DNA of 64,000 bases from Candidatus Doudnabacteria bacterium (GTDB taxonomy: Bacteria; Patescibacteriota; Doudnabacteria; UBA920; 2-01-FULL-46-14), in contig JAHFJD010000001.1 of NCBI GenBank assembly GCA_023246055.1, positions 2,781 to 66,780 of the forward strand. The letters are read 5' to 3'. How positions within the stretch are numbered: position 1 is the stretch's first letter; every line of letters starts with the position of its first letter. Positions 6,209 to 64,000 of the stretch are shown piece after piece. Made by a program: the position numbers and the translations under genes. The notes under the pieces were generated by a model. The model saw only the letters and a program-made list of their open reading frames with translations. It was not told where the DNA came from and did no database searches.

Positions 6209-7654
6209 AAACGGCAAGACGTAGACGAGCCAGAAGAGGATAGAGAGATCGTTTTTGAAATAGGAGACGTCGACCAGACTGTGGAGCACGATCATTGCCA
6301 TGCCGGCTCCGGCAGCGAGGGCTAACCCCCTCTTGATCTCCCCCTCACGAGGGGGAGAAATTTGTTTTTGCCCCTCCTCGTGAGGGGGGGAAGGGGAGGT
6401 AACAGTTTTGTATATTTTTTTGTAAAATAGAATCAATAGCCCAATGATACTTAGCAATCCTAAAAGCCCGGTCTCCACCCAAAAGGTCAGAAAAAAATTG
6501 TGCGGATAGTTTTGAATGACCCGATCCGGGCCGAGGGGGTAGTTTTTGTAGGCTTCACGAAAACCCGTTAGCCCTACCCCAGTTATGGGATGATGCTTCA
6601 ATATATCCACTGCCGCAGTCCACAGCACATAACGATTTTCTTTGGATGGGTCAGCATGAGTGAGATTTAGAAGTTTGGCGCGGGAGACGGGGATGGCAAA
6701 GACAAGAGTGATAATAACCAATAGCGATAACAATAACTTTGGGGTGCGCGACCTCTCCTGGCCTTCGGCCACCCTCCCCTCGCCAGGGGAGGGGATAAGG
6801 AATGCGACCCCAACAAGGGTCGCCGCCAAGGCCAGCCAGCCCGCGCGGGAAAATGTTAAATAAAATGCAACCAGTCCAAATCCGAGCGCAGTCCACCTCA
6901 ATTTGTTTTTGGGCAGCATGATTAGCATGGTGAGAACGGGCCCTAAGAGCAAGGCCAATCCATTGGGGTGGTTTAGTAATGACACGATTCTGCGCTCCGC
7001 AAAACTGACGTCCCACCAGGAGGGCGGGAGATTTTGCAAGGTCAGATATTGATAAACTCCAAACGCAGATAAATACAAAACCAGGACGGTCATGCTTTGG
7101 AATAATTTTTTCAATTTTTCTTGCGAATCAATAGTAAGGCGCAGCAAGAAATAAAAGAGTATCGGTTCAAAAAAATAAGCTTTGAAAATACCAGCGGCTT
7201 TGAGCGTGTCTGGGGCGATGAATACAGAAATGACGGCCGCAAGGAGGAAGAGAATAATAAAAATATATTGGGCCACCCCCCACCTCACCTCCTCGCCTCG
7301 CCTTCGCTCGGACGAAGCGCCCCCCACAAGGGGGGAGGAATCCCTGGTTTTTATTCCTTCCCCTTGTGGGAGAGGGTTAGGCCTGCCCGCCATTGGCCTT
7401 GAGCCTTCAGGCGATTGGCAGGCGGGGAGGGGCGAAAGGATTGAAAGTATCCGCGGGTTTCGAATTAAAGCAATAACTTCCACTGCCGCCAATAGCAAAA
7501 TCATCCCTTCGAGAAATGTCGCGGGGACTCCGAATACTTGAAAACGAATTTGATAACTCGGCAGTCCCAGGACAATGAGATAAATCCCCCACTCTCGCCG
7601 GTAAAGACTTGCCACCAAAAAACCAATTAGACTGATTATTATCCAAGGGTTCAT
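6188..7654 (-). CDS. O-antigen ligase/Wzy_C family polytopic membrane protein carrying three in-frame GC-rich repeat insertions
   Basis: 488 aa; HPHNFFLTFWVETGLLGLL Wzy_C-like motif; insertions encode SPSPPHEEGQKQISPPREGE, IPSPGEGRVAEGQERS and a ~55-aa G/P/R-rich segment. Confidence 0.6.
   Translation of the reverse strand: MNPWIIISLIGFLVASLYRREWGIYLIVLGLPSYQIRFQVFGVPATFLEGMILLLAAVEVIALIRNPRILSILSPLPACQSPEGSRPMAGRPNPLPQGEGIKTRDSSPLVGGASSERRRGEEVRWGVAQYIFIILFLLAAVISVFIAPDTLKAAGIFKAYFFEPILFYFLLRLTIDSQEKLKKLFQSMTVLVLYLSAFGVYQYLTLQNLPPSWWDVSFAERRIVSLLNHPNGLALLLGPVLTMLIMLPKNKLRWTALGFGLVAFYLTFSRAGWLALAATLVGVAFLIPSPGEGRVAEGQERSRTPKLLLSLLVIITLVFAIPVSRAKLLNLTHADPSKENRYVLWTAAVDILKHHPITGVGLTGFREAYKNYPLGPDRVIQNYPHNFFLTFWVETGLLGLLSIIGLLILFYKKIYKTVTSPSPPHEEGQKQISPPREGEIKRGLALAAGAGMAMIVLHSLVDVSYFKNDLSILFWLVYVLPFLDFQFD
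6337..6390. repeat. GC-rich hairpin repeats (family 1) TCTCCCCCTCACGAGGGGGAGA plus second hairpin CCCCTCCTCGTGAGGGGGGG, inside CDS
   Basis: Perfect inverted repeats directly visible; same motif recurs at >=14 sites. Confidence 0.8.
7255..7440. repeat. Composite GC-rich insertion (family-1-related hairpins plus CCTGCCCGCC/GGCAGGCGGG motif) inside Wzy-like CDS
   Basis: ~185 bp of >65 % GC inside an AT-rich gene; contains CCCCCCACAAGGGGGGAGG hairpin and GCCTGCCCGCC...GGCAGGCGGGG. Confidence 0.6.
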
Positions 7655-26117: not shown

Positions 26118-26170
26118 CGGTCTGGTGCCCGAGCAGTTAGGGAGCGGTCTGCCTGCCCGCCACGGCCTGA
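26118..26170 (+). other. Partial duplicate of tRNA-Cys 5' half (38 nt identical to positions 1-38 of the intact gene)
   Basis: GGTCTGGTGCCCGAGCAGTTAGGGAGCGGTCTGC repeated verbatim at 26171. Confidence 0.6.
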
Positions 26171-26241
26171 GGTCTGGTGCCCGAGCAGTTAGGGAGCGGT
26201 CTGCAAAACCGCGTAGACGGGTGCAACTCCCGTCCAGACCT
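26171..26241 (+). tRNA. tRNA-Cys (anticodon GCA)
   Basis: 71 nt; acceptor GGTCTGG/CCAGACC, anticodon stem GCGGT/ACCGC, loop CTGCAAA; unusual T-loop TGCAACT. Confidence 0.7.
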
Positions 26242-26300
26242 TGGGCGATGGCAGGCGGGCAAAACCGCCATTCACGGGTGCAACTCCCGTCGTGGCCTCC
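26242..26300 (+). other. Degenerate tRNA-Cys-like 3' fragment with encoded CCA
   Basis: Shares ACGGGTGCAACTCCCGTC T-arm with the intact gene; ends CGTGGCCTCCA; lacks D-arm. Confidence 0.45.
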
Positions 26301-26345
26301 AAGGTATTATTCCCCTCTTAGGCTAAGAGGGGTTAGGGGAGTTAA

Positions 26346-29341: not shown

Positions 29342-29859
29342 ATTTGTGATTAAACGAATTCCTTTCTTGACCCTCTCGTTACAGTTATGGGTCTTGATCA
29401 ATAATTCGTGAAGCTTAGGTGTTGCCTACCCTATCCGGTTAGGGATAGGGCACGCAACCTGCCATCTTAACATAAAATGCTTTTTTGGTCAAGAGTCGCA
29501 GGTTGCAAATATTGGTTTTTTCTTTGTTTACAAACTAAAAACCGCTACAATTTGCGGTTTTTCGAAACATTGAACAATCTTATTATAGCAGATTTATACC
29601 TATTAGTCAATGCGCACTCTTCCGTGGCTACACTGATAGTGCACAACGAGACTCCTGATCTCTAGCCTGGTGATGTGGCCTTAACCCCCTCTCCCATTTG
29701 GGAGAGGGCGGGGGTGAGGTTTGGAAGACCGCTACATAAGCCGAAAGTCCTGTGGTTTTTAATATCTCCGCTACCTCACCCTAACCCTCTCCGTTGTCGG
29801 AGAGGGAATTCAGACAGTTTGCCAGCTATCAGAAAATTGTGCATGATCAGTTTGACTAT

Positions 29860-29927
29860 GACCCACTGAGGGATTCGAACCCCCGACTCCCGCCGTGTAA
29901 AGGAAGAACTCCCCGCCTGCCAAAGCC
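29860..29927 (-). other. tRNA 3'-half-like fragment (T-arm GGGGGTTCGAATCCCTC + acceptor strand) without matching 5' acceptor
   Basis: Minus strand ...GGCGGGAGTCGGGGGTTCGAATCCCTCAGTGGGTCA; no complementary 5' strand found. Confidence 0.35.
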
Positions 29928-29930
29928 TGG

Positions 29931-30004
29931 TGGCCATTGCTGGGTTCGAACCAGCGACCTTTCGGATGTAAACCGAATGCTCTAACCAGCTGAGCTAAAT
30001 GGCC
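29931..30004 (-). tRNA. tRNA-Val (anticodon UAC), CCA encoded
   Basis: GGCCATTTAGCTCAGCTGGTTAGAGCATTCGGTTTACATCCGAAAGGTCGCTGGTTCGAACCCAGCAATGGCCACCA. Confidence 0.85.
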
Positions 30005-30040
30005 AATGGCGGGCAGGTACCACTGAGTTAAGTGCGCGAA

Positions 30041-54588: not shown

Positions 54589-56598
54589 ATGGCAAACTTG
54601 GCCATAAAACTCAAAAATCTTCCTCAAGCCCCCGGGGTGTATCTGTTCAAAAACAACCGCGGCGAGGTTTTGTACGTTGGTAAAGCTAAAAATCTGAAAA
54701 ATCGCGTCAGGTCATACTTTCAGAATGGCAGAGATTTCGAAGCGCGACTCACGGTCATGAAGCAAAACATTGCGGATCTTGATTACACAGTGGTGTCCTC
54801 GGAAATCGAGAGCCTGATGCTCGAAAATAATCTCATCAAGCAATATCAGCCACGATTCAATGTGCTCATGCGAGATGATAAAAATTATCAGTTTATCAAG
54901 CTCGATTATTCTTTTGAAATCCCACAGATTTACACAGTGCGTCAGGTTCCCCTCCTCGTGAGGAGGGGTCAGGGGAGGTTAACCCCCTCCCCGCCCGCCT
55001 CGCAAGCGAGAGCGTTGCGGGCAGGTTCCTCTCCCCCTCACCTGCCCGACTTCGTTTGGGCGAAGTCCAGGCGGGCGGGCGAGGGGGAGAAACTTTCAAG
55101 GTATTTCGGGCCTTATACCTCCAGCCTGGCAGTCAAACAAACTTTGCACCTGTTGAAAAGCATTTTCCATCTCTGCCGCAACAAAAAGATCATTACCAAA
55201 CCCTGTTTCGCCTATCAACTCGGCCGTTGCAGTGGGGTGTGTGTTGGCAAGGTCTCATTACCTGAGTATCTTGAGACTTTTAAGCAAGTCGAAGGTTTTC
55301 TCAAGCATCGGCAAACCGAGATGATGAAAATTCTGCGCGGGGAAATGACCACTGCCGCCACGCGCCACAAATTTGAGAGGGCAGCCATGATCCGGGATAC
55401 GATTCGGTCACTAGAATATATGTGGCAAAAGCAAAAAATCGTGACAGCGAGAAATGAAAACCACGATTATCTCGGGTTGTTCAAACTGGCAACACAAGCG
55501 GTGGTGTGTTTGTTTGTGGTGCGGGGAGGGAGACTCATCCATACTGAACATTTTGAACTGGTGCATGACAATTCTTCATCACCGGAGATTATGGAGCGAT
55601 TTATCACCCAGTATTATGAACAAACCAGCGATATTCCTCAGGAGCTTATCCTCTCTGAAGAATTACCCCGCGTCCCACTCCTGGAAAAATTTCTCACTCG
55701 GCTCACAGGTCAGCGGATTACATTGATTGTTCCGCACCGCGGCAAAAAATCTGGATTGTTAAAACTTGCTGCGGAAAATGCCAGACTCTATCACGAGCGG
55801 CAAATGCCGGATTTTCAAAAAGAAAAACCCAAGCAAACACTCCATGCTTTATCGAGGTTTCTTGAACTTCCAAAAATCCCGATGCGCATTGAAGGTTATG
55901 ACATTTCCAACATCCAAGGAATCAATCCAGTCGGATCGATGGTAGTGTTTACTGCTGGCGTGCCGGACAAAAGCCAATATAGAAAATTTAAAATCAGACT
56001 CCCAGAAACCCCCAATGATTTTGCTATGATGCGCGAGATGCTGGAGCGGAGATTTCGTCACCTCCCCCTCATGAGGGGGAGGATGGGTGGGGGTCGCGGA
56101 GCAAATACACCCACAACCTTCCCTCCCCCTCCTCACGAGGAGGGGGACAATACCTCTTGGCTTCTCCCCGACCTCATCATTATCGACGGCGGCAAAGGGC
56201 AGCTAAATGCTGCTGTTTCCATACTGAAACACAATGATCTGAAAATTCCTGTGATAGCGCTTGCGAAACGACTCGAAGAAATTTTTTTGCCGGGGCGAAA
56301 GAATCCCCTGGTGCTTCCCCCAGGCAACCGGGCGTTATTTCTCCTTCAGCGTATTCGGGATGAGGCTCATCGTTTTGCTGTGACATTTTTCCGGAGCCGT
56401 CACCGGCGCGCTCAAATTTATTCTCGCCTCGAGGATATTTTTGGGGTTGGACCAGTAACTCGAAAAAAATTGATCAAAAAATTCGGCAGCGCTATAGCGG
56501 TCAGACGCGCTTCTCTTGACGCTCTTACGGCAGAGATCGGTCCGCGACTTGCAAAAAATATCAAGGAGCAACTGCCCCCATATCAAGCGAAGCCCTGA
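54589..56598 (+). CDS. uvrC: Excinuclease ABC subunit C carrying two in-frame GC-rich repeat insertions
   Basis: 669 aa; GIY-YIG N-terminus (GVYLFKNNRGEVLYVGKAKNLKNR), UvrC Endo-V/RNaseH-like and HhH C-terminus; insertions at 54940-55095 and 56060-56160 encode P/G/E-rich segments. Confidence 0.9.
   Translation: MANLAIKLKNLPQAPGVYLFKNNRGEVLYVGKAKNLKNRVRSYFQNGRDFEARLTVMKQNIADLDYTVVSSEIESLMLENNLIKQYQPRFNVLMRDDKNYQFIKLDYSFEIPQIYTVRQVPLLVRRGQGRLTPSPPASQARALRAGSSPPHLPDFVWAKSRRAGEGEKLSRYFGPYTSSLAVKQTLHLLKSIFHLCRNKKIITKPCFAYQLGRCSGVCVGKVSLPEYLETFKQVEGFLKHRQTEMMKILRGEMTTAATRHKFERAAMIRDTIRSLEYMWQKQKIVTARNENHDYLGLFKLATQAVVCLFVVRGGRLIHTEHFELVHDNSSSPEIMERFITQYYEQTSDIPQELILSEELPRVPLLEKFLTRLTGQRITLIVPHRGKKSGLLKLAAENARLYHERQMPDFQKEKPKQTLHALSRFLELPKIPMRIEGYDISNIQGINPVGSMVVFTAGVPDKSQYRKFKIRLPETPNDFAMMREMLERRFRHLPLMRGRMGGGRGANTPTTFPPPPHEEGDNTSWLLPDLIIIDGGKGQLNAAVSILKHNDLKIPVIALAKRLEEIFLPGRKNPLVLPPGNRALFLLQRIRDEAHRFAVTFFRSRHRRAQIYSRLEDIFGVGPVTRKKLIKKFGSAIAVRRASLDALTAEIGPRLAKNIKEQLPPYQAKP
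54940..55095. repeat. Long GC-rich composite hairpin insertion (family 1 + CCCGCCCGCC/GGCGGGCGGG arms) inside uvrC
   Basis: ttcccctcctcgtgaggaggggtcaggggagg...ccccgcccgcctcgcaagcgagagcgttgcgggcagg...caggcgggcgggcgagggggagaaac. Confidence 0.7.
56061..56148. repeat. Two adjacent GC-rich hairpin repeats (family 1) inside uvrC: CCTCCCCCTCATGAGGGGGAGG and TCCCCCTCCTCACGAGGAGGGGGA
   Basis: Seen directly; encode HLPLMRGRMGGGRGANTPTTFPPPPHEEGD. Confidence 0.8.
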
Positions 56599-56943: not shown

Positions 56944-58704
56944 ATGCTCGATCTCCAATCACCGACAAATCACGAAGACCGCGACAAAACCACATTCTCG
57001 CGGTTTGTCGCGCGCGCTAAAATTTATTCGAACAGATTTTCCAGCGCAGAAAAAAAACTCTTAGCTGGATTGTTGATCCTACTGATTGGCAGTGCGGTAT
57101 TTTATGAGATCAGATTCCGCTCGAACTCGATCCTCGTGCCAAAAACCGGCGGCTCTTATACTGAAGGCCTCGTCGGTCAGCCGCAGCACATCAATCCGCT
57201 TCTGGCCCCAGCCAACAAAGTCGACCTCGACCTCTCCCGGATTGTCTATGCCGGGCTTTTGAAATTCGACCAAAACCTCAATCTAGTCCCGGATTTGGCA
57301 GAGGCCATGCCACAGATTTCCGCAGATGGCAAAGAGTATACAGTAAAGTTGCGCCCGAACCTGATCTGGCCGGGGAAGGAAGGCCGCCGCCTCACAGGAA
57401 GTGACGTGAGGTTTACCATACAAGCCATCCAAAATCCGGATTATCAGAGTCCCCTGCGGCTGTCGTGGAACAAGGTGGAAGTGCAAGAAATCGATGAGCT
57501 CACGTTAAAATTTATCATCCGAGAAGCCTCCGCCACATTCATTGCCAATCTTACGGTAGGGATCATGCCGAAACATATTTGGGAAAATATTTCCGGTTCA
57601 TCATTTGCGCTGTCGAATCTCAATCTCGAACCCACTGGCGCCGGTCCCTTTCAAGTGGATAAAATTACTCGCGGACGAAATGGCGAAGTTCGTAGCATCA
57701 GCCTTGTGCCGAATAAACAATATCATCTTGGTCGGTCGTATTTGGACAAACTTACTTTTCGTTTTTTTGAGTCAACCGATGATCTCATCGAGGCTTATCA
57801 CAGCCACGATATCGAGGGGCTTGGTTTTGAACCATTTGACCGGAGTTTGTTCATTGAACCCAAAAAAAGCCTCCAGCAAATCAAGTTGACACTCCCCCAA
57901 TATCAAGCGGTATTTATTAACGAACTAAAAAATCCGGCACCCCTCGGAGATCCCCGGGTGCGTCTCGCTCTTGCGAAATCCGTTAACAAACAGCAAATCA
58001 TCTCTGATATTTATGGGGATCAAGTGGGGGAGGCTTATGGTCCGATTTTGCCCGGGCACCTTGGCTATCATGAGCAAATCCCAGGGGCTCCAATGAATAT
58101 TTACGATCTAGAAGGAGCCAAGAAACTCCTCGAAGAGGCGGGTTGGACTGTGGATCCGGCGACCGGTTTTCGCAAAGACAAACTTGATCGTACTGTCACG
58201 TTGAGCCTCGTGACCAATGATTTTTCTCCAAACGTGCGCGTGGCTGATGCTCTCAAGCAAATGTGGGAATCAATTGGCATCAAAATCGTTTTGAGCATAG
58301 AAACGCCGCGCGACCTTGAAGAGAAATACATCCGGCCGCGGAATTTTGAACTCCTGTTGTTTTCGGAGAATGTGGGCGCTGATCCGGACCCGTATCCGTT
58401 CTGGCACTCGGCCCAGCGCCGCGATCCGGGTCTCAATTTCACGACTTTTGCGAACGCGCAGGCAGATCGTCTTTTGGTTGAGGCTCGAGGTAATGTCTCG
58501 GCAGTGGTTCGTGCCCAAAAATATCGACAATTTCAGGAAATTTTTGTCGGCGTGGTTCCAGCTATCTTTCTGACTCGTAGCCTGTATGTCTACAATCTAC
58601 CCGCCAAAATCCAAGGCGTGAAATTGGGCACTGTGGTTACCGCGGCTGATCGATTTGCCGATATCCGGGAGTGGTATATTGAAACCAGGAGAGTAAAGAA
58701 GTAG
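56944..58704 (+). CDS. ABC transporter oligopeptide-binding protein (SBP family 5) with N-terminal TM anchor
   Basis: 586 aa from ATG 56944; SBP_bac_5-like sequence throughout. Confidence 0.75.
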   Translation: MLDLQSPTNHEDRDKTTFSRFVARAKIYSNRFSSAEKKLLAGLLILLIGSAVFYEIRFRSNSILVPKTGGSYTEGLVGQPQHINPLLAPANKVDLDLSRIVYAGLLKFDQNLNLVPDLAEAMPQISADGKEYTVKLRPNLIWPGKEGRRLTGSDVRFTIQAIQNPDYQSPLRLSWNKVEVQEIDELTLKFIIREASATFIANLTVGIMPKHIWENISGSSFALSNLNLEPTGAGPFQVDKITRGRNGEVRSISLVPNKQYHLGRSYLDKLTFRFFESTDDLIEAYHSHDIEGLGFEPFDRSLFIEPKKSLQQIKLTLPQYQAVFINELKNPAPLGDPRVRLALAKSVNKQQIISDIYGDQVGEAYGPILPGHLGYHEQIPGAPMNIYDLEGAKKLLEEAGWTVDPATGFRKDKLDRTVTLSLVTNDFSPNVRVADALKQMWESIGIKIVLSIETPRDLEEKYIRPRNFELLLFSENVGADPDPYPFWHSAQRRDPGLNFTTFANAQADRLLVEARGNVSAVVRAQKYRQFQEIFVGVVPAIFLTRSLYVYNLPAKIQGVKLGTVVTAADRFADIREWYIETRRVKK

Positions 58705-58715
58705 AATACTTTGAT

Positions 58716-58833
58716 AAGGGCGCGTGGCGGAACTGGCCCGCCCAAATTTGCAAAGCAAATTTCAGTCGGGCAGGCAGATTTGCCCCGCATAGCTGGTGCC
58801 TGTATGGCGGAACTGGTATACGCGTACGTTCAC
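58716..58833 (+). other. Two tandem degenerate copies of the tRNA-Leu(CAG) 5' portion (pseudo-tRNA remnants)
   Basis: 58716-58800: GGGCGCGTGGCGGAACTGGCCCGCC... with Leu-like D-arm and variable arm but no T-arm; 58800-58833: 28 nt identical to tRNA positions 5-32 (GTATGGCGGAACTGGTATACGCGTACG). Confidence 0.55.
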
Positions 58834-60389
58834 CCCGCACTAACTCTTTGCAAGTTTAACAAATTACTTATTCTTGATGGGCGTATGGCGGAACTGGTAT
58901 ACGCGTACGCTTCAGGAGCGTATGGCCGCAAGGCCGTGAGAGTTCGAGTCTCTCTACGCCCACCACCCAAGTAATTTCTCCGATCGGCGATCAAGTCGTA
59001 AGGTTCTTTTAGCTTAAGGATCACATTTTCCGCGCTCACCAACCGGTTCGAGGTCAACGTTTCCACCAAACAATGCTTTTCTTCTTCATTTGCCATTTCG
59101 TAGCTTGAATATGCGGTTTTTGCGAGTTCGAGAACATTGAGGACGTGATCGGGAACGGCAGCCATTTTCTCTGGGGCTCCCAGCTGCTGCTCTAGATCTT
59201 TCTTCTCCAACAGCAGAAGCCGATTCCGATTGTCAAACGCTTCTTTATCGAGGACTTGATCCAGGTAGGCGTCGGTCAGGCGAGCCAACCGCTGTTCAAT
59301 GTTCGAAATCCGCAATCGCAAACCCTTCTGTGCCGATTCCGTATTCTGCTTCCAGTCCGCTTTCAGTTTTTCAATGGCTTGCCGAGCCCGGACTTCTTCC
59401 AGCGGCTCCAGTTCCAGCTTGAACAATTCCGCCCTAACAGCGTAGTCCACGGCCTCCTCTCGTACGCAACGGGTCGGACATGCCGAAGTATGGCAACGGT
59501 AATAAACATGGCCTTTCTGCCGCTCGCCGATCATGGTTGCCTGACAGAGGCTGCACGCCAGTAGCCGCCGGAAAGCAAACCAATGCCGGAAATTCCTCGG
59601 GTGATAACGTCCATCGAGTATGGCTTGCACACGATCGAAGGTAGGCTTCGGTACCAGCGGTACGTGAGCGCCGGGAAAGGATTCTCCAGTGCTGTGAATG
59701 AGAATCACACCGACATAGAAGGGATCCCGTAACATCAAGGCCCACCGGGCCCGCTGCACGGAGCGGTTCCTGGTGTTTCTCAAGCCTCGCTTCGTCATTT
59801 CCTCCGTCAGTTGATCAAGGTTGTATCTTCCGGATGCGTACAGATCGAAACCCAGACGAACGAGTGGCCCTTTGACCGGGTCGATGGCCTTGGGTTGACC
59901 GGCTCCTTGATCAAGGTAACCCAACGGGGCAGGGCGCGGATAGATACCTTGCTTGAGCCGGCCATAGAATCCTTTGCGCGTCTCTTCGCGTAGGTTTCGG
60001 ATATAGTCGGCGGCCACGACAGCTTGAATGTCAGCGGTCAGCCGCCCGCCGCGCGTGTTCAGATCCAGGCTTTCATTGGCAAACCAAACATCAGTCCCCT
60101 GATCGATGAGTTCTCCGAGATCCGCCCAGTCCCGAAGGTTCCTGGCGCTGCGGTCGATCTTGTGAATGACCACACCGGTCGCCTTGCCGGCTTTCAATGC
60201 TTTCAGCATTTGATTGAAAATCGGTCGTCCGCGTTTGGCAGCGGTTTCTCTTTCTTCAAACCATTCTCCAACATCGAACCCGCGGGTTCGGCAGAATCGC
60301 TCGATGGCGCCTCGCTGTTCTTGCAAAGAGACGCCTTTTTCGCCTTGTTTGGGCGTAGAAACACGGATGTAACCAAACACTTGTTTCAT
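58830..60389 (-). CDS. Large serine recombinase (resolvase/invertase N-terminal domain + recombinase + zinc-ribbon domains)
   Basis: 519 aa; YIRVSTPKQGEKGVSLQEQ catalytic Ser motif; C-terminal ~47 codons read antisense through tRNA-Leu so true stop may be earlier; high local GC. Confidence 0.85.
   Translation of the reverse strand: MKQVFGYIRVSTPKQGEKGVSLQEQRGAIERFCRTRGFDVGEWFEERETAAKRGRPIFNQMLKALKAGKATGVVIHKIDRSARNLRDWADLGELIDQGTDVWFANESLDLNTRGGRLTADIQAVVAADYIRNLREETRKGFYGRLKQGIYPRPAPLGYLDQGAGQPKAIDPVKGPLVRLGFDLYASGRYNLDQLTEEMTKRGLRNTRNRSVQRARWALMLRDPFYVGVILIHSTGESFPGAHVPLVPKPTFDRVQAILDGRYHPRNFRHWFAFRRLLACSLCQATMIGERQKGHVYYRCHTSACPTRCVREEAVDYAVRAELFKLELEPLEEVRARQAIEKLKADWKQNTESAQKGLRLRISNIEQRLARLTDAYLDQVLDKEAFDNRNRLLLLEKKDLEQQLGAPEKMAAVPDHVLNVLELAKTAYSSYEMANEEEKHCLVETLTSNRLVSAENVILKLKEPYDLIADRRNYLGGGRRETRTLTALRPYAPEAYAYTSSAIRPSRISNLLNLQRVSAG
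58879..58962 (+). tRNA. tRNA-Leu (anticodon CAG), CCA encoded
   Basis: GGGCGTATGGCGGAACTGGTATACGCGTACGCTTCAGGAGCGTATGGCCGCAAGGCCGTGAGAGTTCGAGTCTCTCTACGCCCA(CCA). Confidence 0.85.
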
Positions 60390-60470
60390 GGTTGTTGGTG
60401 GACTTGAGACTTACTTAGTTAAAAGATTACTGGCTAGAGTGGTGATAAAACGTGGAGAAACTCTCGCCCT

Positions 60471-62720
60471 TTATCGTCGGATGTATCCCCCAATCGCTCG
60501 GTCGTCCAACCCAGCAAGGTGGGCATCCTTCTTCCGATTTAGAAAAGCGAAGACATGCCAATAAAGCAGTCCACGCGCCGCTTCGCTGGCGCCGGCGTGC
60601 TCCTGAAGCAACTCGTTTAGCATTCCCCAAACTTGTCCATATTGCTCGTTTCGCAATAGTACTTCTGCCAAGCGAATGGTGATCTCGACACGAAGATCCT
60701 TGTCACTGCATGTATCGGCCCATTTTCGCCATTCAGCAAAGTCCGGCTTGGTGTCCATGCGTTCTCGCCACCTGGCACGGACTACATCGTACGCGCAACA
60801 CTGTTGGAGATTGGAAGGATCCGGCCGTTCAAGTGGAAACTCGTTAGCGCTTTCGCCCAACGTTTTAAGCTGCAGCAAGATTTCCAATGACTTTACGAGG
60901 TAGTCCTGGCCTGGCTTAAATCGTAGGTATGGGTTCGCCAGAATCCACTCCAGAACGCTTTCAACGTGAGTGTTCGTGTGCCTGAATGACGACCGGAAAA
61001 AAGGCCAAATATCACCGCTGATCAGCGCAAAAGTGACTTCCGACAGGTCGTTTCCAATTCGGGAACCAGACACCAAACCATCCTGGATCGCACTTAGCAA
61101 GTCTGATTTAGTCTTATCTTTTATATCTCGCCGTACGCGGTCAACCAATCCTTGATTGATGCGCTGGACGAATGTAATCGGCTGGACGAGACTAGCGAAA
61201 AGATTCTCCGCAGTAGGATCGATTTGTGAGGCATCAACATGAATTACGCTCGCAAAACCGAACGTATCAAGATCGTCGATCAGCCGAGTGATGTCACTCT
61301 CCAGATGTTCGTTCAGGTTTTGAAATGCACTCTCAGCGGCCCTCACAAAGAGCGTCTTCGTAAATCCTAAAGGCGCATTCGAATCCAGAAGGACCAAAAG
61401 GTCGAGGAGCGCTCTTGCGCGTTTCGATAGCGACTCCAGAAAGTAGTCGCAATGGTTGTCAGATAGCCTCAGAAATTTTGATTGAGTCATCCTGACGGCG
61501 GTCCCAGGATTGCCACTTGACATCGCGGCGATGGTAGCTACGTCCACGTCACGCGGAAGGTCCATCCGATTCAAGATGGCTGCGATGTCTGAGCGCCTGA
61601 GAGGTTGAAGCTTGAGGCTCGGCAGTTCTGCCACATCCAAGGGGTAAATGGATTCGAAAATCCATACAGTACGATCCCGAGCCGGAGCGGTCTTCCCTTG
61701 TGAGGTGACCTCGCGCACAAATTCCCTGATACTGTTGGCTGCAGCAATTGGATAGGATTCGACCCATATAACAATATCCTTCGAATCCAGTTCCTCAATT
61801 AGCTTTGTACGGCCTAGACCGCTGGGATCAGCATCTGTCACCGCCCGAAAGGTGTGTTGTAGGAACTTATCCACGGAGCGAGCATCTCCCGGACTAACTG
61901 GAAAGCAGTCGCGTTCTCGATTGCGTATATAGTGCTTGATTAGCTCGCTTTTCCCCAGTCCAGGCACAGAGACAACGTCGACGAAACGAACAGTTTTAAG
62001 CGATTCTTTCAACCGTTCGTAATCACTTGATCGTAATTTGTCTAAGTACCAGGGTTTTGAAATCAGATTGTGAACACCATCTAGGTTCTGTCTTAGGAAG
62101 GTTGAAAGACTTTCTAGGTCTGGAAAGGAGGCTAGGCGTTGTTTGATGATAGACTTTAATTGGTCTGCAGCGGAGAGGTGACCGTCAATTTGCGCGCTAC
62201 GAAGCTGCTTCTTCAAAACATCGAGCAAGTTGTATTCATGGGTATAATTCGCTTTCGGTTCGCCTGCGATTCCGACATTGTCATGCGAGAGGTCATGGAG
62301 ATCCGACTTGATCTTCTGAATGTCTGAAAGATCAAGGCCAGGGCAATAGAACAGAATTTCTGGGTCGCGACGGCTTAGAAACCTTATACCCTGATTAACG
62401 AGTGCTCCCTTAAGGAATCCCTGTAAACGCTCCAACTTTTCCAAGAAGGAGTGGAGCTGGCGAGAAACTTCATCGCCAGGTAGATTCTTGACTTCACAGA
62501 CCGCTAGTCGATCTCGAAACGCCAGAACCAAGTCAGCTTGTCTCGCTTTTTGCCAGGGGAATGCCACTTCGAAGAACGCTGACAATTCACCTCGGCTATC
62601 GGTATCCAAAGTGTCCGCCCACCTCTCAATGTCTCGAATTGTGTTTAACGTAGTGGGCTTACTCACCCATTGTTTAAGAGCTCTTATCCACTTTGGATCG
62701 TCTGGAACAAAGCATCGCAT
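60471..62720 (-). CDS. NERD/PD-(D/E)xK nuclease-like domain fused to P-loop NTPase and C-terminal alpha-helical domain (candidate defence/abortive-infection protein)
   Basis: 749 aa; N-terminal ...ADLVLAFRDRLAVCEVKNLPG (D...EVK NERD-like); Walker A VSVPGLGKSELIKHY near aa 300; long helical C-terminus; ~55 % GC vs ~42 % flanks. Confidence 0.55.
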   Translation of the reverse strand: MRCFVPDDPKWIRALKQWVSKPTTLNTIRDIERWADTLDTDSRGELSAFFEVAFPWQKARQADLVLAFRDRLAVCEVKNLPGDEVSRQLHSFLEKLERLQGFLKGALVNQGIRFLSRRDPEILFYCPGLDLSDIQKIKSDLHDLSHDNVGIAGEPKANYTHEYNLLDVLKKQLRSAQIDGHLSAADQLKSIIKQRLASFPDLESLSTFLRQNLDGVHNLISKPWYLDKLRSSDYERLKESLKTVRFVDVVSVPGLGKSELIKHYIRNRERDCFPVSPGDARSVDKFLQHTFRAVTDADPSGLGRTKLIEELDSKDIVIWVESYPIAAANSIREFVREVTSQGKTAPARDRTVWIFESIYPLDVAELPSLKLQPLRRSDIAAILNRMDLPRDVDVATIAAMSSGNPGTAVRMTQSKFLRLSDNHCDYFLESLSKRARALLDLLVLLDSNAPLGFTKTLFVRAAESAFQNLNEHLESDITRLIDDLDTFGFASVIHVDASQIDPTAENLFASLVQPITFVQRINQGLVDRVRRDIKDKTKSDLLSAIQDGLVSGSRIGNDLSEVTFALISGDIWPFFRSSFRHTNTHVESVLEWILANPYLRFKPGQDYLVKSLEILLQLKTLGESANEFPLERPDPSNLQQCCAYDVVRARWRERMDTKPDFAEWRKWADTCSDKDLRVEITIRLAEVLLRNEQYGQVWGMLNELLQEHAGASEAARGLLYWHVFAFLNRKKDAHLAGLDDRAIGGYIRR

Positions 62721-62845
62721 ACGCGTTTACTTGGATTGGATTGGGCAGAGCATACGAAAAGCAGGCTGCAAAAGCAACCTGCCGAAATCTCCCCGAGCTA
62801 GTAGCTGAAGGAAATCCACACCATCCTCCTGTAAATATAACTTGG

Positions 62846-62880
62846 GCTGCTATGTCCGATAGGACTCGGACATAGCAGCT
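62846..62880. repeat. Strong perfect hairpin GCTGCTATGTCCGA-TAGGA-CTCGGACATAGCAGC downstream of island-internal gene start
   Basis: 14-bp perfect stem seen directly. Confidence 0.8.
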
Positions 62881-63600
62881 TGCAGCCACGCACGTCTTAC
62901 AAGTCGTGCTTGGGTCTGTGGCCGACGCCAATGTTGTGCACAATGACTTGCGCGCTCCCATTTCCTAGACAACCGTGATAAACCATGCTCCACATCTACT
63001 AGCGCTACCGCGTGCCGCTAGGACACACTAGTAAACGTGTGCTAGCGTGAGCATCCCTATCATCGGCGGAAACAAGCATTGACGACCCTGAGGCCCCCTT
63101 ACTCCATGGCTAGTGTAGTGGCCATTTTGAGCGCCAATAACCCAACGAAGACGCGGTCAGCCACGCGTTGGGTCAAAGAATAAAGCGTTCGCAACACCAC
63201 CAATTACCACTTTCGTGGGGTGCTCAATGATTCATTGAAGTAGGAAGGAACTATCGAAATCCTTGGCTGGACACCGCAGATTACAAGGCAGTATATACCA
63301 TTCAAGTTATTGTTTCAATAGGACTTACAGTTCAGAAACTCCTTTTAATACCGTCTGCTTATGGAAGTATAAAATTTCTGTAAAAAGGAAAGTGGGCGTT
63401 ACGATGAGGGTTTCGTCTTGACGCGTTGCGAGGGAACCCGTATAGATACTTTCATGATCTTGGTTATGCGGATATTTCTTAAAACCTAACCTGTCGTAAT
63501 CACGCCCGCCTCAGGCGGCGTTCACGCATTGAATGCGGACACGGTGGCCACGCAACAAGAACCAGAAGAGCCAACCGACAATCGAAAGGAGAAACAATCG

Positions 63601-64000
63601 GTGGCTCGACAAAGTAAACGCTCTTATGGGAGCGGATGTGTGATTCAACGGGGGAAGGGTTTTGCAATCCGCTGGCGCGAGATTCAAATCCTACCGGATG
63701 GAACGAAGCGGTTCGTCAATCGCTGTGAAGCTGTGGGCCGCGTATCCAAGAGGAAAGCGGTTGATATTCTCAACGAGCGGCTGGCTACGGCAGCGACGAC
63801 GGTCCAACGTCCGGTTATCACGTTTTCGGAACTCGCCACGGTTTGGAAAGCAACTGTACTCCCCATGTACAAATACTCCTCGCGGCTTGTTCGCGGGGAT
63901 ACCGTAACCAAGAAGCTCATTCCACGTTTCGGAGACTGGGAGTTGACTGACGTGACGAAGCAAGAAATCCAAAGCTACATCGCGGAACTTCACCGTGCCG
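63601..64000 (+). CDS. Tyrosine-type site-specific integrase, N-terminal part (runs off right edge)
   Basis: GTG start after AAGGAG; VARQSKRSYGSGCVIQRGKGFAIRWREIQILPDGTKRFVNRCEAVGRVSKRKAVDILNERL...SELATVWKATVLPMYKYSSRLVRGDTVTKKLIPRFGDWELTDVTKQEIQSYIAELHRA resembles phage-integrase N-terminal arm-binding/SAM-like regions; no stop before window end. Confidence 0.55.
   Translation, partial: MARQSKRSYGSGCVIQRGKGFAIRWREIQILPDGTKRFVNRCEAVGRVSKRKAVDILNERLATAATTVQRPVITFSELATVWKATVLPMYKYSSRLVRGDTVTKKLIPRFGDWELTDVTKQEIQSYIAELHRA

What the first reader, a model, noticed from the sequence alone, without database searches (positions are those of the whole stretch)
58716..64000. Higher-GC integrated island at tRNA-Leu(CAG): serine recombinase + NERD-P-loop NTPase + tyrosine integrase, with degenerate tandem tRNA 5' copies
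An intact tRNA-Leu(CAG) (58879-58962) is preceded by two decaying copies of its own 5' portion (58716-58833). It is immediately followed, on the opposite strand and overlapping the tRNA, by a 519-aa large serine recombinase. GC content rises to about 55 % from there to the window end. The island also encodes a 749-aa nuclease-like/NTPase fusion, an ~880-bp GC-rich non-coding spacer with strong hairpins (62846-62880; CTAGCG-rich 62990-63060), and the 5' part of a tyrosine integrase. Two different recombinase classes plus repeated tRNA fragments suggest serial integration of mobile elements at this tRNA.
Basis: partly seen in the sequence, partly recalled or inferred. Interest (0 to 1): 0.7.

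Follow-up and report, generated by a model that had tools for sequence, protein, structure and literature searches.

The report
Serine-recombinase island fused to tRNA-Leu
A block of foreign genes has inserted at the end of a leucine tRNA gene in a tiny Doudnabacteria-type (candidate phyla radiation) bacterium, by means of a serine recombinase whose own gene reads backwards across the tRNA; the same fusion recurs in relatives, which suggests that this recombinase family targets tRNA genes, a habit regarded as rare and unproven for its class.

Summary
tRNA-Leu(CAG) is at 58879-58965. Two partial 5' copies lie upstream. A 519-aa large serine recombinase (LSR) ORF runs antisense through the tRNA. 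A 749-aa NERD/STAND protein, an 880-bp spacer with a perfect hairpin, and the start of a tyrosine integrase follow. The GC claim is overstated: 0.51 against 0.47. Tetranucleotide usage, however, is a strong outlier.

The host resembles Candidatus Doudnabacteria. Its relatives have SBP, tRNA-Leu(CAG) and RNase J in that order, so the island interrupts conserved synteny.

The main result is about the LSR. In 5 of 83 homologous loci, one of them in another Doudnabacteria genome, a tRNA overlaps the LSR 3' end in the same way. Two fused genes have 90-92 % identical full-length relatives, and homology between them ends at the tRNA CCA end. Full-length genes carry a DNA-level conserved motif, CCT CGA ACT, that resembles the tRNA T loop. 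I conclude that attP lies inside the LSR gene and that the target is the tRNA 3' end.

The 5' tRNA copies are not scars of this integration. They resemble nested tRNA fragments at tRNA-Cys and tRNA-Val elsewhere in the window. The STAND gene and the tyrosine integrase appear truncated.

The parts
58679..58707 (+). Promoter-like site (TTGAAA-17-TAGAAT) inside the 3' end of the SBP gene; probably the native tRNA-Leu promoter
   Evidence: Found by the consensus scan. The same TTGAAA-17-TA(G/A)AAT precedes the tRNA in relatives L007 and L008. Function is inferred.
58718..58737 (+). Unit 1: remnant of the original host tRNA-Leu 5' end (acceptor strand and start of the D arm), at the native position
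   Evidence: It starts 13 nt after the SBP stop codon, exactly as the tRNA does in L007. Its acceptor strand GGGCGCG and D loop AACTGGC are of the type seen in the relatives (GGGCACG, AACTGGC).
58735..58778 (+). Copy, with 2 mismatches, of the genome's GC-rich palindrome (GGCCCGCC, 26 nt, GGCAGGCAGA) that breaks unit 1 in its D loop; the centre is an AT-rich hairpin
   Evidence: Read from the sequence. Compared with TGCCCGCC..GGCRGGCRGG at 7384-7426, 26154-26259 and 29912-30015. The match is only approximate, so this assignment is tentative.
58802..58832 (+). Unit 2: copy of tRNA-Leu nt 5-36, with a sharp end of identity in the anticodon loop
   Evidence: 27 of 27 identical, then TTCA after loss of C32.
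58833..58878 (+). AT-rich spacer between unit 2 and the intact tRNA
   Evidence: Read from the sequence. It shares TTATTCTT with the leader of the tRNA in L008. No function has been shown.
58879..58965 (+). Intact tRNA-Leu(CAG), the resident host gene and the attB target
   Evidence: ARAGORN; Rfam 54.9 bits; orthologous tRNA-Leu(CAG) sits at the same place in L008, L009, L011 and L012.
58955..58970 (.). Inferred attL crossover zone: the tRNA acceptor/CCA end, read on the other strand as the LSR codons G-G-G
   Evidence: By analogy with the pairs L079/L088 and L021/L015, where homology between the fused and the full-length gene ends at the tRNA 3' end. This is an inference for the window itself.
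58942..58948 (+). T-loop box GTTCGAG of the tRNA; it takes the place of the third conserved box of the LSR gene, 6 nt closer to the crossover
59046..59052 (+). Second conserved GTTCGAG box, inside the LSR codons T-S-N-R
   Evidence: It sits at a fixed offset in the family, and third-codon-position information is 1.9 bits at the S and N codons.
59126..59132 (+). First conserved GTTCGAG box, inside the LSR codons L-E-L
58830..60389 (-). Large serine recombinase ORF in its integrated form (519 aa). The part conserved in the family ends at R482-T483. The last 36 residues are read from antisense tRNA and spacer.
   Evidence: Pfam domains; alignments A1 and of 83 sequences; homologues at 52-58 % identity.
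60471..62720 (-). NERD-type nuclease plus STAND P-loop NTPase (Avs-like); it lacks about 300 C-terminal residues present in the family
   Evidence: 70 remote homologues, mostly 1050-1100 aa, match only over their first ~750 residues. D63, E76 and K78 are invariant. Homologues hit NERD, nSTAND3 and AAA_22. The AF2 model has pLDDT 83.6, and its best fold matches are Avs3, SAMD9, CED-4 and Avs4.
62721..63600 (.). Non-coding spacer with a perfect 14-bp hairpin (62846-62879), a second structured stretch at about 62975-63060, and a terminator-like site on the - strand (62783-62760)
   Evidence: No Rfam match. No similarity to any fetched locus.
63601..64000 (+). N-terminal part of a tyrosine integrase; probably a truncated gene (249 aa in a second assembly)

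Best explanation
From about 58,960 to beyond the window end lies a foreign genomic island, at least 14 kb long. It sits in a Doudnabacteria-type genome, inserted at the 3' (CCA) end of the resident tRNA-Leu(CAG) gene.

Insertion was carried out by the large serine recombinase encoded at the island's left edge. In this LSR clade the element's attachment site (attP) lies inside the last ~10 % of the recombinase gene. The codons N-G-G-P are the complement of a tRNA acceptor/CCA end. About 24 nt further on, the codons P-R-T (CCT CGA ACT) are the complement of a T-loop-like box, GTTCGAGG.

Recombination with a tRNA gene at its CCA end joins the body of the recombinase gene to the antisense strand of the tRNA. 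The tRNA stays intact. Its own T loop replaces the element's box, 6 nt closer to the crossover. The recombinase loses its native C-terminal helix and gains a tail read from the tRNA. The split-off gene tail should lie at the far end of the island (attR).

Shown here: the island interrupts synteny and is compositionally foreign; the fusion recurs; the breakpoints fall at the tRNA 3' end; the motif is constrained at the DNA level.

Inferred: the T-loop box is the recognition motif of the recombinase's zinc-ribbon domain; the crossover is at the CCA end in this window; the change of tail affects activity.

The island now looks decayed, with a truncated STAND defence gene and a truncated tyrosine integrase. 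The two upstream 5' tRNA fragments are older host-side scars. They belong to a separate, unexplained pattern of nested tRNA fragments in this genome.
For: 1. Synteny. SBP orthologues at 61-81 % identity are named Candidatus Doudnabacteria. In L008, L009, L011 and L012 the SBP gene is followed by tRNA-Leu(CAG) and then RNase J.
2. Composition. The island's tetranucleotide correlation with the host is 0.47, against 0.86-0.95 for host windows.
3. Recurrence. Among 83 homologous LSR loci, L017 (tRNA-Ala), L020 and L021 (tRNA-Glu), L046 (tRNA-Leu GAG) and L079 (tRNA-Ala) have a tRNA antisense over the LSR 3' end. L013 and L032 carry tRNA-3'-like fragments there. The host of L020 is another Candidatus Doudnabacteria, and its LSR is the best DNA match to the window's (73 %).
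4. Phylogeny. The fused genes are scattered over the tree and have near-identical full-length relatives: L079 against L088 at 92 %, L021 against L015 at 90 %. DNA homology within these pairs stops right after GAT GGT GGA CC, the complement of GGTCCACCA, which is the tRNA-Ala 3' end.
5. DNA-level constraint in 74 full-length genes. Arg is CGA in 65 of 69 (background 0.14). Thr is ACT in 47 of 59 (background 0.14). The preceding Pro is CCT in 39 of 39 (background 0.14). The 'G' column is NGT in 62 of 73, although the amino acid varies (G, S or C). Third-position information is about 1.0 bit over 11 codons, against 0.41 +/- 0.38 in the rest of the gene.
6. The 7-mer CTCGAAC occurs at three fixed offsets in three different reading frames.
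7. Spacing. The box lies 24 nt from the GGT codon in full-length genes but 18 nt in all fused genes. This fits the published shift of the zinc-ribbon motif about 5 bp towards the centre in attB relative to attP (PMC3783163).
8. All residues invariant in the family are present in the window's LSR up to T483. After that it lacks the family helix LDxLLxxLxxxFxxNP.
Against: - The right end of the island (attR, the displaced gene tail, RNase J) could not be read. One assembly is indexed without DNA and the 71.5-kb record is not indexed.
- Full-length genes in the 'attP form' also lie on long chromosomal contigs (L004 2.9 Mb, L068 404 kb). An intact gene therefore does not prove a free element, and many members may integrate in another way.
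- No candidate recombination directionality factor is present. The small ORF that precedes the LSR in L002-L005 is missing here.
- Third-position constraint is clear only on the distal arm, not on the arm next to the gene body. A symmetric attP is therefore not demonstrated.
- The role of the two inner boxes is unknown.
- No experiment or read-level evidence for excision is available.
Confidence: 0.7

Rival explanations
1. One reading: several mobile elements integrated one after another at this tRNA, each leaving a partial tRNA copy. The two 5' fragments would be their att scars, and the LSR and the tyrosine integrase would belong to different elements.
For: - Two recombinase classes are present.
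- Identity between unit 2 and the tRNA ends sharply in the anticodon loop, a classic crossover place for tyrosine integrases (background knowledge, Williams 2002).
- The island contains decayed genes, which suggests age and layering.
Against: - Elements that lie downstream of a tRNA and restore it displace 3' fragments to their distal end, not 5' fragments upstream.
- Only 46 and 61 nt separate the copies, so no element lies between them.
- The other five tRNA-fused LSR loci have no such copies.
- Similar fragments flank tRNA-Cys and tRNA-Val with no recombinase nearby.
- The tyrosine integrase points away from the tRNA and seems truncated.
Confidence: 0.12
2. The island carries its own complete tRNA-Leu(CAG), which overlaps its recombinase gene. 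It integrated into the anticodon loop of the host tRNA-Leu. Unit 2 is then the orphaned host 5' half, and the host 3' half lies at the far end.
For: - Identity of unit 2 ends in the anticodon loop, and the LSR stop codon lies exactly there.
- The intact tRNA has a different acceptor stem (GGGCGTA) from unit 1 (GGGCGCG).
- Around tRNA-Cys an intact tRNA sits between a 5' half and a 3' half.
Against: - In L020 and the other fused loci the tRNA is plainly the host's own gene, with a host promoter region and no 5' half nearby.
- The L079/L088 and L021/L015 pairs place the junction at the tRNA 3' end, not in the anticodon loop.
- Unit 2 is 100 % identical to the intact tRNA over 27 nt. This fits a recent local duplication better than two lineages.
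Confidence: 0.1
3. Assembly chimera: a Doudnabacteria contig and a contig from another organism (for example Acidobacteriota) were joined through a shared tRNA sequence.
For: - Named LSR homologues are mostly Acidobacteriota.
- The tyrosine integrase is 74 % identical to one from a Terriglobia MAG.
- The island encodes CsgG and an ECF sigma factor, which are odd for a CPR cell.
- The composition differs strongly from the host.
Against: - The same junction is present on a second contig of 26.7 kb. It may, however, derive from the same reads.
- An LSR of the same clade is fused to tRNA-Glu on a 137-kb Doudnabacteria contig from an unrelated study.
- The junction lies where the family's conserved DNA motif predicts it, and the reading frame is preserved.
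- The tRNA is of the type seen in the relatives over nt 8-46.
Confidence: 0.05
4. The overlap is incidental. The recombinase is a dead or unrelated passenger (a resolvase or invertase), and the island entered through the tyrosine integrase or by homologous recombination.
For: - The LSR has lost its family C-terminus.
- There is no directionality factor.
- Many clade members sit intact in chromosomes.
Against: - Independent tRNA fusions occur at the same codon position with four different tRNA species (counting this window), and the fused genes are scattered across the tree.
- The DNA motif is conserved in three reading frames.
- The tyrosine integrase is far from the tRNA, points away from it, and is truncated.
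Confidence: 0.05

Closest known systems
Myxococcus phage Mx8 IntP/attP (tyrosine integrase)
   Same: attP lies inside the integrase gene. [quoted passage not shown] 1996).
   Different: Mx8 Int is a tyrosine recombinase with arm sites. Here the enzyme is a large serine recombinase, and the mimicry involves the T-loop box and the CCA end.
SSV-type 'suicidal' integrases of archaea
   Same: The integrase ORF carries the recombination site, the gene is split on integration, and the targets are tRNA genes (PMC7253208 abstract; PMC4383910).
   Different: They belong to the tyrosine recombinase family, occur in archaea, and the gene is split into two large parts. Here only the last ~45-60 residues are exchanged.
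Phage large serine integrases (Listeria A118/LI, phiC31, Bxb1, TP901-1, SPbeta)
   Same: The domain order is the same: Resolvase, Recombinase, zinc ribbon. There is remote sequence similarity to the TP901-1 catalytic domain. The attP half-site is longer than the attB half-site (PMC3783163).
   Different: Their sites are short stand-alone sequences, usually in protein-coding genes or intergenic DNA. They are not known to lie inside the integrase ORF or to use tRNA genes. Identity to any solved structure is low, and there is no equivalog hit in NCBIfam.
Serine-integrase elements at tRNA/tmRNA genes predicted by TIGER (Mageeney et al. 2020)
   Same: A computational survey found 14 of 297 S-Int elements at t(m)RNA genes. 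It stated that such use had not been reported before and needs proof (PMC7192596).
   Different: In what I read of it, that survey gave no mechanism, no site inside the integrase gene, and no T-loop motif. I did not check whether its 14 cases belong to this clade.
Classical tRNA-linked genomic islands (P4-like tyrosine integrases)
   Same: The island lies downstream of an intact tRNA, with the integrase gene at the tRNA-proximal edge, foreign composition, and defence-gene cargo.
   Different: The recombinase class differs, and the integrase ORF overlaps the whole tRNA.
Avs (antiviral STAND) proteins, e.g. Avs3/Avs4
   Same: N-terminal nuclease, STAND NTPase and helical repeats. Avs3 and Avs4 are among the best fold matches. 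Homologues hit nSTAND3 and NERD.
   Different: No PADLOC model matches. The nuclease is of the NERD type. The family is only ~1050-1100 aa long, and the window copy lacks the last ~300 residues.

Membership tests
Large serine recombinase (serine integrase) | N-terminal resolvase catalytic domain with the catalytic serine in the Y-x-R-V-S motif | tested here: met
   PF00239 E 1.8e-28 over residues 4-148. YIRVST with S11 is invariant in the alignment.
Large serine recombinase (serine integrase) | Recombinase domain and zinc-ribbon domain C-terminal to the catalytic domain | tested here: met
   PF07508 E 1.5e-9 and PF13408 E 1.4e-6, both above the curated cut-offs.
Large serine recombinase (serine integrase) | Short attP and attB sites, with the crossover at a central dinucleotide and a longer attP half-site | tested here: inconclusive
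   Breakpoints map to the tRNA CCA end. The box lies 24 nt from the crossover in the attP form and 18 nt in the fused form. The dinucleotide and the proximal half-site are not defined.
Large serine recombinase (serine integrase) | Catalyses integration, and excision with a directionality factor | not testable with these tools
   No experiment or read data are available. No candidate factor gene lies next to the LSR.
Integrases whose ORF spans attP (Mx8/SSV type) | The integrated form has an altered or split integrase gene; the free form has the complete gene | tested here: inconclusive
   Fused and full-length genes occur as 90-92 % identical pairs, with the break at the tRNA end. No attR and no circular form were seen. 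Full-length genes also occur in chromosomes.
tRNA-linked genomic island | Absent from the same site in related genomes | tested here: met
   L008, L009, L011 and L012 have SBP, tRNA-Leu(CAG), RNase J.
tRNA-linked genomic island | Composition differs from the host | tested here: met
   Tetranucleotide correlation is 0.47 against at least 0.86 for host windows. The GC difference is small.
tRNA-linked genomic island | Direct repeat of the tRNA 3' end at the distal boundary | not testable with these tools
   The boundary lies beyond base 64000. The second assembly is listed without DNA.
Avs-like antiviral STAND NTPase | STAND/P-loop NTPase core | tested here: met
   19 of 25 family members hit nSTAND3 and 22 hit AAA_22. 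In the window protein the P-loop reads VPGLGKS, and its own AAA_22 hit is weak (E 0.016). Fold matches are Avs3, CED-4 and Apaf-1.
Avs-like antiviral STAND NTPase | N-terminal effector (nuclease) domain | tested here: met
   D63, E76 and K78 are invariant. 8 of 25 members hit NERD.
Avs-like antiviral STAND NTPase | Complete C-terminal sensor repeats | tested here: not met
   The window protein ends at about position 750-760 of homologues that are ~1050-1100 aa long. It lacks their conserved distal columns.
Avs-like antiviral STAND NTPase | Match to a curated defence-system model | tested here: not met
   No PADLOC hit at E <= 1.
Tyrosine integrase | N-terminal SAM-like domain | tested here: met
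   PF14659 E 1.5e-7.
Tyrosine integrase | Catalytic domain with the R-H-R-Y residues | not testable with these tools
   This part lies beyond the window end. The gene call on the second assembly is 249 aa, against 399 aa in L001, whose catalytic domain spans residues 197-368.

The most novel reading that the evidence does not exclude
This clade of large serine recombinases reads the near-universal tRNA T-loop sequence (GTTCGA) and the CCA end as its attB. It keeps a copy of that signal, plus two further phased copies, inside its own coding sequence as attP. Integration swaps the enzyme's C-terminal helix for a tRNA-encoded tail. That swap would be a built-in switch between the free and the integrated state, possibly replacing or assisting a directionality factor. 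Members have retargeted among tRNA-Ala, -Glu and -Leu. They are one of the few integrative element types seen in CPR bacteria such as Doudnabacteria.
Probability: 0.35. Interest if true: 0.75.

Novelty: new variant of a known kind. Interest (0 to 1): 0.6.

Why it matters
- Serine integrases are widely used genome-engineering tools. Textbook accounts say that tRNA genes are targets of tyrosine integrases. A 2020 survey called serine-integrase use of tRNA genes previously unreported and in need of proof (PMC7192596).
- A clade whose attP is written into its own reading frame as a mimic of the tRNA 3' end would give that proof a concrete, testable form. The test uses defined pairs of free-form and integrated-form genes and a defined motif.
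- It would also show how a serine integrase can be retargeted among tRNAs.
- It documents integrative elements, with defence-type cargo, in Doudnabacteria. This is a lineage with very small genomes whose mobile elements are poorly known.
- For annotation: an ORF that reads through a tRNA on the opposite strand should not be trimmed or discarded automatically.

Tried and rejected
- Word-indexed homologue search with the 749-aa protein found nothing. The exhaustive HMMER search was needed.
- A single-sequence AF2 model was useless, with pLDDT 37. The model built from an alignment was good.
- PADLOC and NCBIfam gave nothing for the 749-aa protein. The afdb50 fold library was not available.
- I tried to read the right end of the island. 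The encoding-contig look-ups returned gene lists but no DNA. The genome-collection scan found only a Terriglobia relative of the tyrosine integrase, not the source genome.
- The viral contig collection holds only distant relatives of the LSR, at most ~40 % identity over the catalytic domain. The phage collection gave no DNA match, and the plasmid collection matched only at the conserved LSR domain. I found no support for a prophage or a plasmid origin.
- The first four homologous loci I inspected (L002-L005) had no tRNA. This made the overlap look accidental until the larger set was scanned.
- Rfam found nothing in 58500-64000 except the tRNA.
- I rejected reading units 1 and 2 as decayed whole tRNA copies. 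The unit spacing (80-81 nt) is shorter than the tRNA (87 nt), and identity in unit 2 ends abruptly rather than decaying.
- I looked for a symmetric proximal half-site. Only a weak GAGGT inverted match appeared, and third-position information there was at background level.
- I compared DNA downstream of the tRNA in relatives with the element's proximal arm. A shared ATCGGCG 7-mer lies at an inconsistent distance, so I treated it as chance.

Full report
**What is there**

ARAGORN finds tRNA-Leu(CAG) at 58879-58965, and Rfam confirms it at 54.9 bits.

Two partial copies of its 5' part lie upstream, with start-to-start spacing of 80 and 81 nt.
- Unit 1 (58718-58736) matches the tRNA start at 17 of 19 positions.
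- Unit 2 (58802-58828) is identical to tRNA nt 5-31. After loss of one C it continues as TTCA, up to anticodon-loop position 36, and then becomes unrelated.

An ORF of 519 aa on the minus strand (58830-60389) has the three domains of a large serine recombinase (LSR). It reads antisense through the whole tRNA and stops inside unit 2.

To its right lie three further features.
- A 749-aa ORF at 60471-62720 (-).
- An 880-bp non-coding stretch with a perfect 14-bp hairpin.
- The first 133 codons of a tyrosine integrase.

The claimed rise of GC to 55 % is overstated. The island averages 0.51 against 0.47 for the rest of the window, and only its first kilobase reaches 0.54. Tetranucleotide usage is nevertheless far outside the host range. 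Its correlation with the host is 0.47 against 0.86-0.95, and its distance is about six standard deviations above the host mean.

**Host and empty site**

The substrate-binding protein (SBP) gene just left of the tRNA has orthologues at 61-81 % identity. Where these carry a source name, it is usually Candidatus Doudnabacteria; other names are mostly other Patescibacteria.

In four contigs from such relatives the order is UvrC, SecG, SBP, tRNA-Leu(CAG), RNase J, TrpRS/TyrRS-type synthetase, PGM. The tRNA is therefore a native gene at this place, and the island sits where RNase J should follow.

A second assembly of the same locus gives gene calls but no DNA. It shows that the island continues for at least 10 kb beyond the window. 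The genes listed are:
- the tyrosine integrase (only 249 aa);
- an M23 peptidase;
- an ECF sigma factor, an anti-sigma factor and CsgG;
- Rad52;
- a PD-(D/E)xK nuclease;
- DUF932;
- ABM.

I could not reach the right boundary.

**The recombinase and the tRNA**

The LSR has thousands of homologues. The best non-self hits are 52-58 % identical, and many of the named ones are from Acidobacteriota.

In an alignment the window protein follows the family up to ...G-G-x(5)-R-T (R482, T483). In the window those residues are encoded by the antisense strand of the tRNA acceptor stem and T arm. After R-T the family shares an amphipathic helix (LDxLLxxLxxxFxxNP), which the window protein lacks.

The first four homologous loci had no tRNA. 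I then fetched 80 more from metagenomes.
- In five of the 83 loci a tRNA lies antisense over the LSR 3' end, exactly as here: L017 and L079 (tRNA-Ala), L020 and L021 (tRNA-Glu), L046 (tRNA-Leu GAG).
- Two more, L013 and L032, carry tRNA-3'-like fragments at that place.
- In every one of these loci the family helix is missing.
- The host flank of L020 encodes an RsmH that NCBI assigns to Candidatus Doudnabacteria. This is a second, independent Doudnabacteria genome with the same architecture, and its LSR is the closest DNA match to the window's.

This makes an assembly chimera unlikely.

**Where the crossover is**

The tRNA-fused genes do not form one clade. Two of them have near-identical full-length relatives: L079 against L088 and L087 (92 and 90 %), and L021 against L015 (90 %).

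At the DNA level L079 and L088 are co-linear up to GAT GGT GGA CC and unrelated after it. That sequence is the complement of GGTCCACCA, the 3' end of tRNA-Ala.

In L021 against L015 the similarity fades within the acceptor and T-stem part of tRNA-Glu. The full-length gene carries TCCCGATACGGGGCACC where the tRNA has TCCCGATAGCGGTAC. Part of this shared DNA is read in a different frame in the two genes.

The recombination site therefore lies inside the LSR reading frame, at the codons N-G-G-P. The partner site is the 3' end of a tRNA gene.

**A DNA signal inside the coding sequence**

I tallied codons in 74 full-length genes.

| Position | Observed | Background among synonymous codons |
|---|---|---|
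| Arg of R-T | CGA in 65 of 69 | 0.14 |
| Thr of R-T | ACT in 47 of 59 | 0.14 |
| Pro before R-T | CCT in 39 of 39 | 0.14 |
| 'G' column | NGT in 62 of 73, with amino acid G, S or C | GGT 0.17 among Gly codons |

Third-position information stays near 1 bit for 11 consecutive codons, against 0.41 +/- 0.38 in the rest of the gene.

The 7-mer CTCGAAC, whose complement GTTCGAG is the T-loop box, occurs at three fixed offsets in the last fifth of the gene. The three copies lie in three different reading frames (L-E-L, T-S-N-R, P-R-T). Only 8 copies occur in the first 1200 nt of all 83 genes together. Identical DNA in three frames cannot be explained by protein constraint.

In the window the three boxes are at 59126, 59046 and 58942. 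The last one is the T loop of tRNA-Leu itself.

In full-length genes the third box lies 24 nt from the GGT codon. In all fused genes the tRNA's T loop lies 18 nt from it. For serine integrases the zinc-ribbon recognition motif is known to lie about 5 bp closer to the centre in attB than in attP (PMC3783163).

I infer the following, without having shown it:
- the box is that recognition motif;
- the distal arm of attP mimics a tRNA T arm;
- any tRNA gene supplies a ready-made attB half-site.

**Consequences for this locus**

The intact tRNA is host DNA almost to its last bases. The island begins at about 58,955-58,970. The LSR now carries a 36-residue tail read from the tRNA and the spacer. The split-off tail of the gene should lie at the far end of the island.

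The analogy is with phage Mx8 and the SSV viruses, whose tyrosine integrases extend across attP and are altered or split by integration into tRNA genes (PMC4383910; PMC7253208).

For serine integrases, a survey of 2168 genomes found 14 of 297 elements at t(m)RNA genes. It stated that this use had not been reported before and needs proof (PMC7192596).

Caveats:
- Full-length genes also occur on long chromosomal contigs.
- The arm next to the gene body shows no synonymous constraint.
- The role of the two inner boxes is unknown.
- No directionality factor is evident.

**The cargo**

The 749-aa protein has no hit in Pfam, PADLOC or the word-indexed search. The exhaustive search finds 70 remote relatives at 21-40 % identity, mostly 1050-1100 aa long. 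These align only over their first ~750 residues.
- The family has an invariant D...E-x-K nuclease motif.
- Members hit NERD, nSTAND3, AAA_22 and NB-ARC.
- A model built from the alignment (pLDDT 83.6) matches Avs3, SAMD9, CED-4, a STAND-TPR protein and Avs4.

It is thus an Avs-like nuclease-STAND protein. The window copy lacks the last ~300 residues, and the LSR start codon lies only 81 nt past its stop codon.

The tyrosine integrase fragment is 74 % identical to the N-terminus of a 399-aa integrase that lies next to tRNA-Val in a Terriglobia MAG. The 249-aa gene call implies that it ends before the catalytic tyrosine. It also points away from tRNA-Leu.

The island therefore looks old and partly decayed, and possibly composite. 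'Serial integration' cannot be shown from what is visible.

**The 5' tRNA fragments**

Unit 1 starts 13 nt after the SBP stop codon, exactly where the tRNA starts in relative L007. It follows the same promoter-like TTGAAA-17-TAGAAT and has the acceptor and D-loop sequence of the relatives. It is the stump of the original gene.

Integration at a tRNA 3' end does not create upstream 5' fragments, and the other fused loci have none.

The same window shows the same kind of structure twice more.
- tRNA-Cys (26170-26242) is preceded by a copy of its nt 2-35 and followed by a 3' half with a different acceptor stem.
- tRNA-Val (29928-30004) sits inside the D loop of a degenerate second tRNA-Val. That explains ARAGORN's overlapping call.

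Both intact tRNAs are bracketed by a GC-rich palindrome, TGCCCGCC...GGCRGGCRGG.
- One empty copy of the palindrome lies at 7384-7426.
- No copy is expected by chance.
- None occurs in the 172 fetched loci.
- Unit 1 is broken in its D loop by a copy with 2 mismatches.

I cannot explain this pattern. Candidates are insertion of a tRNA cassette into the cognate gene, recombination between processing stems, or a local assembly error. It appears to be a property of the host genome, not of the LSR island.

**Verdict**

The finding is a real island, and most of the description is accurate. The interpretation needs correcting. The recombinase-tRNA overlap is the informative feature; the 5' copies are not. 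The island itself is ordinary. The attP-inside-the-ORF, T-loop-mimic mechanism for a serine integrase clade, seen in two Doudnabacteria genomes, is a new variant of a known kind and can be tested directly.

Noticed in passing
window 26119-26303: tRNA-Cys (26170-26242) is nested. A 34-nt exact copy of its nt 2-35 lies 17 nt upstream. A 3' half (CAAAACCGCC...CGTGGCC-T-CCA) lies 17 nt downstream; its T arm is identical but its acceptor stem is different. The two 17-nt linkers form the arms of a GC-rich palindrome (TGCCCGCC / GGCGGGCA).
   Followed up: partly
window 29860-30040 (- strand): The intact tRNA-Val(TAC) at 29928-30004 is bracketed by CCTGCCCGCCATT and GGCTTTGGCAGGCGGGG. It sits in the D loop of a degenerate outer tRNA-Val. 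ARAGORN's second tRNA-Val, which overlaps the first (29860-29935), seems to be an artefact of that outer pseudogene.
   Followed up: partly
window 7384-7426: An 'empty' copy of the same palindrome (TGCCCGCC, 25 nt, GGCAGGCGGG), with ends nearly identical to those around tRNA-Val. The pattern occurs at 3 loci in the window, against 0 expected by chance and 0 in the 172 fetched loci.
   Followed up: partly
window 7330-7381, 26311-26340, 29781-29808, 54950-54975: A second family of short hairpin repeats (TTCCCCTC, loop, GAGGGGTTAGGG) lies next to the tRNA nests and the empty palindrome. They may be terminators or REP-like elements.
   Followed up: no
window 54988-55081: A long compound GC-rich palindrome (CCCCGCCCGCC...GGCGGGCGGGCGAGGGGGAG) in an intergenic region.
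   Followed up: no
window 1-64000: Ten tRNA calls in 64 kb, including tRNA-Ile(TAT) and three Leu isoacceptors. The 1-5 kb segment has low GC (0.41) and the largest tetranucleotide distance among host windows.
   Followed up: no
L017 3076-3507; L020 5425-5499; L021 2901-2976; L046 3228-3310; L079 5428-5501: Independent metagenome contigs in which an LSR of the same clade reads antisense into a tRNA (Ala, Glu, Glu, Leu-GAG, Ala). L017 comes from the same aquifer metagenome as the Doudnabacteria contig L012.
   Followed up: yes
L004, L005, L017, L046, L079 (upstream of the LSR): Several clade members share a module upstream of the LSR: a ~450-aa protein on the opposite strand, in L004 and L005 accompanied by a DnaG-type primase and a small ORF. 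The window's island has none of these.
   Followed up: no
beyond the window end (gene list of the ERZ27297570 contig): The island continues with an ECF sigma factor, an anti-sigma factor, CsgG, Rad52, a Cas4-like PD-(D/E)xK nuclease and DUF932. CsgG is an outer-membrane component and is unexpected in a CPR bacterium.
   Followed up: no
L001 220-1523: In a Terriglobia MAG the closest relative of the tyrosine integrase (399 aa) ends 30 nt from an antisense tRNA-Val(GAC). This is the same tail-to-tail geometry as the LSR and tRNA-Leu here.
   Followed up: partly
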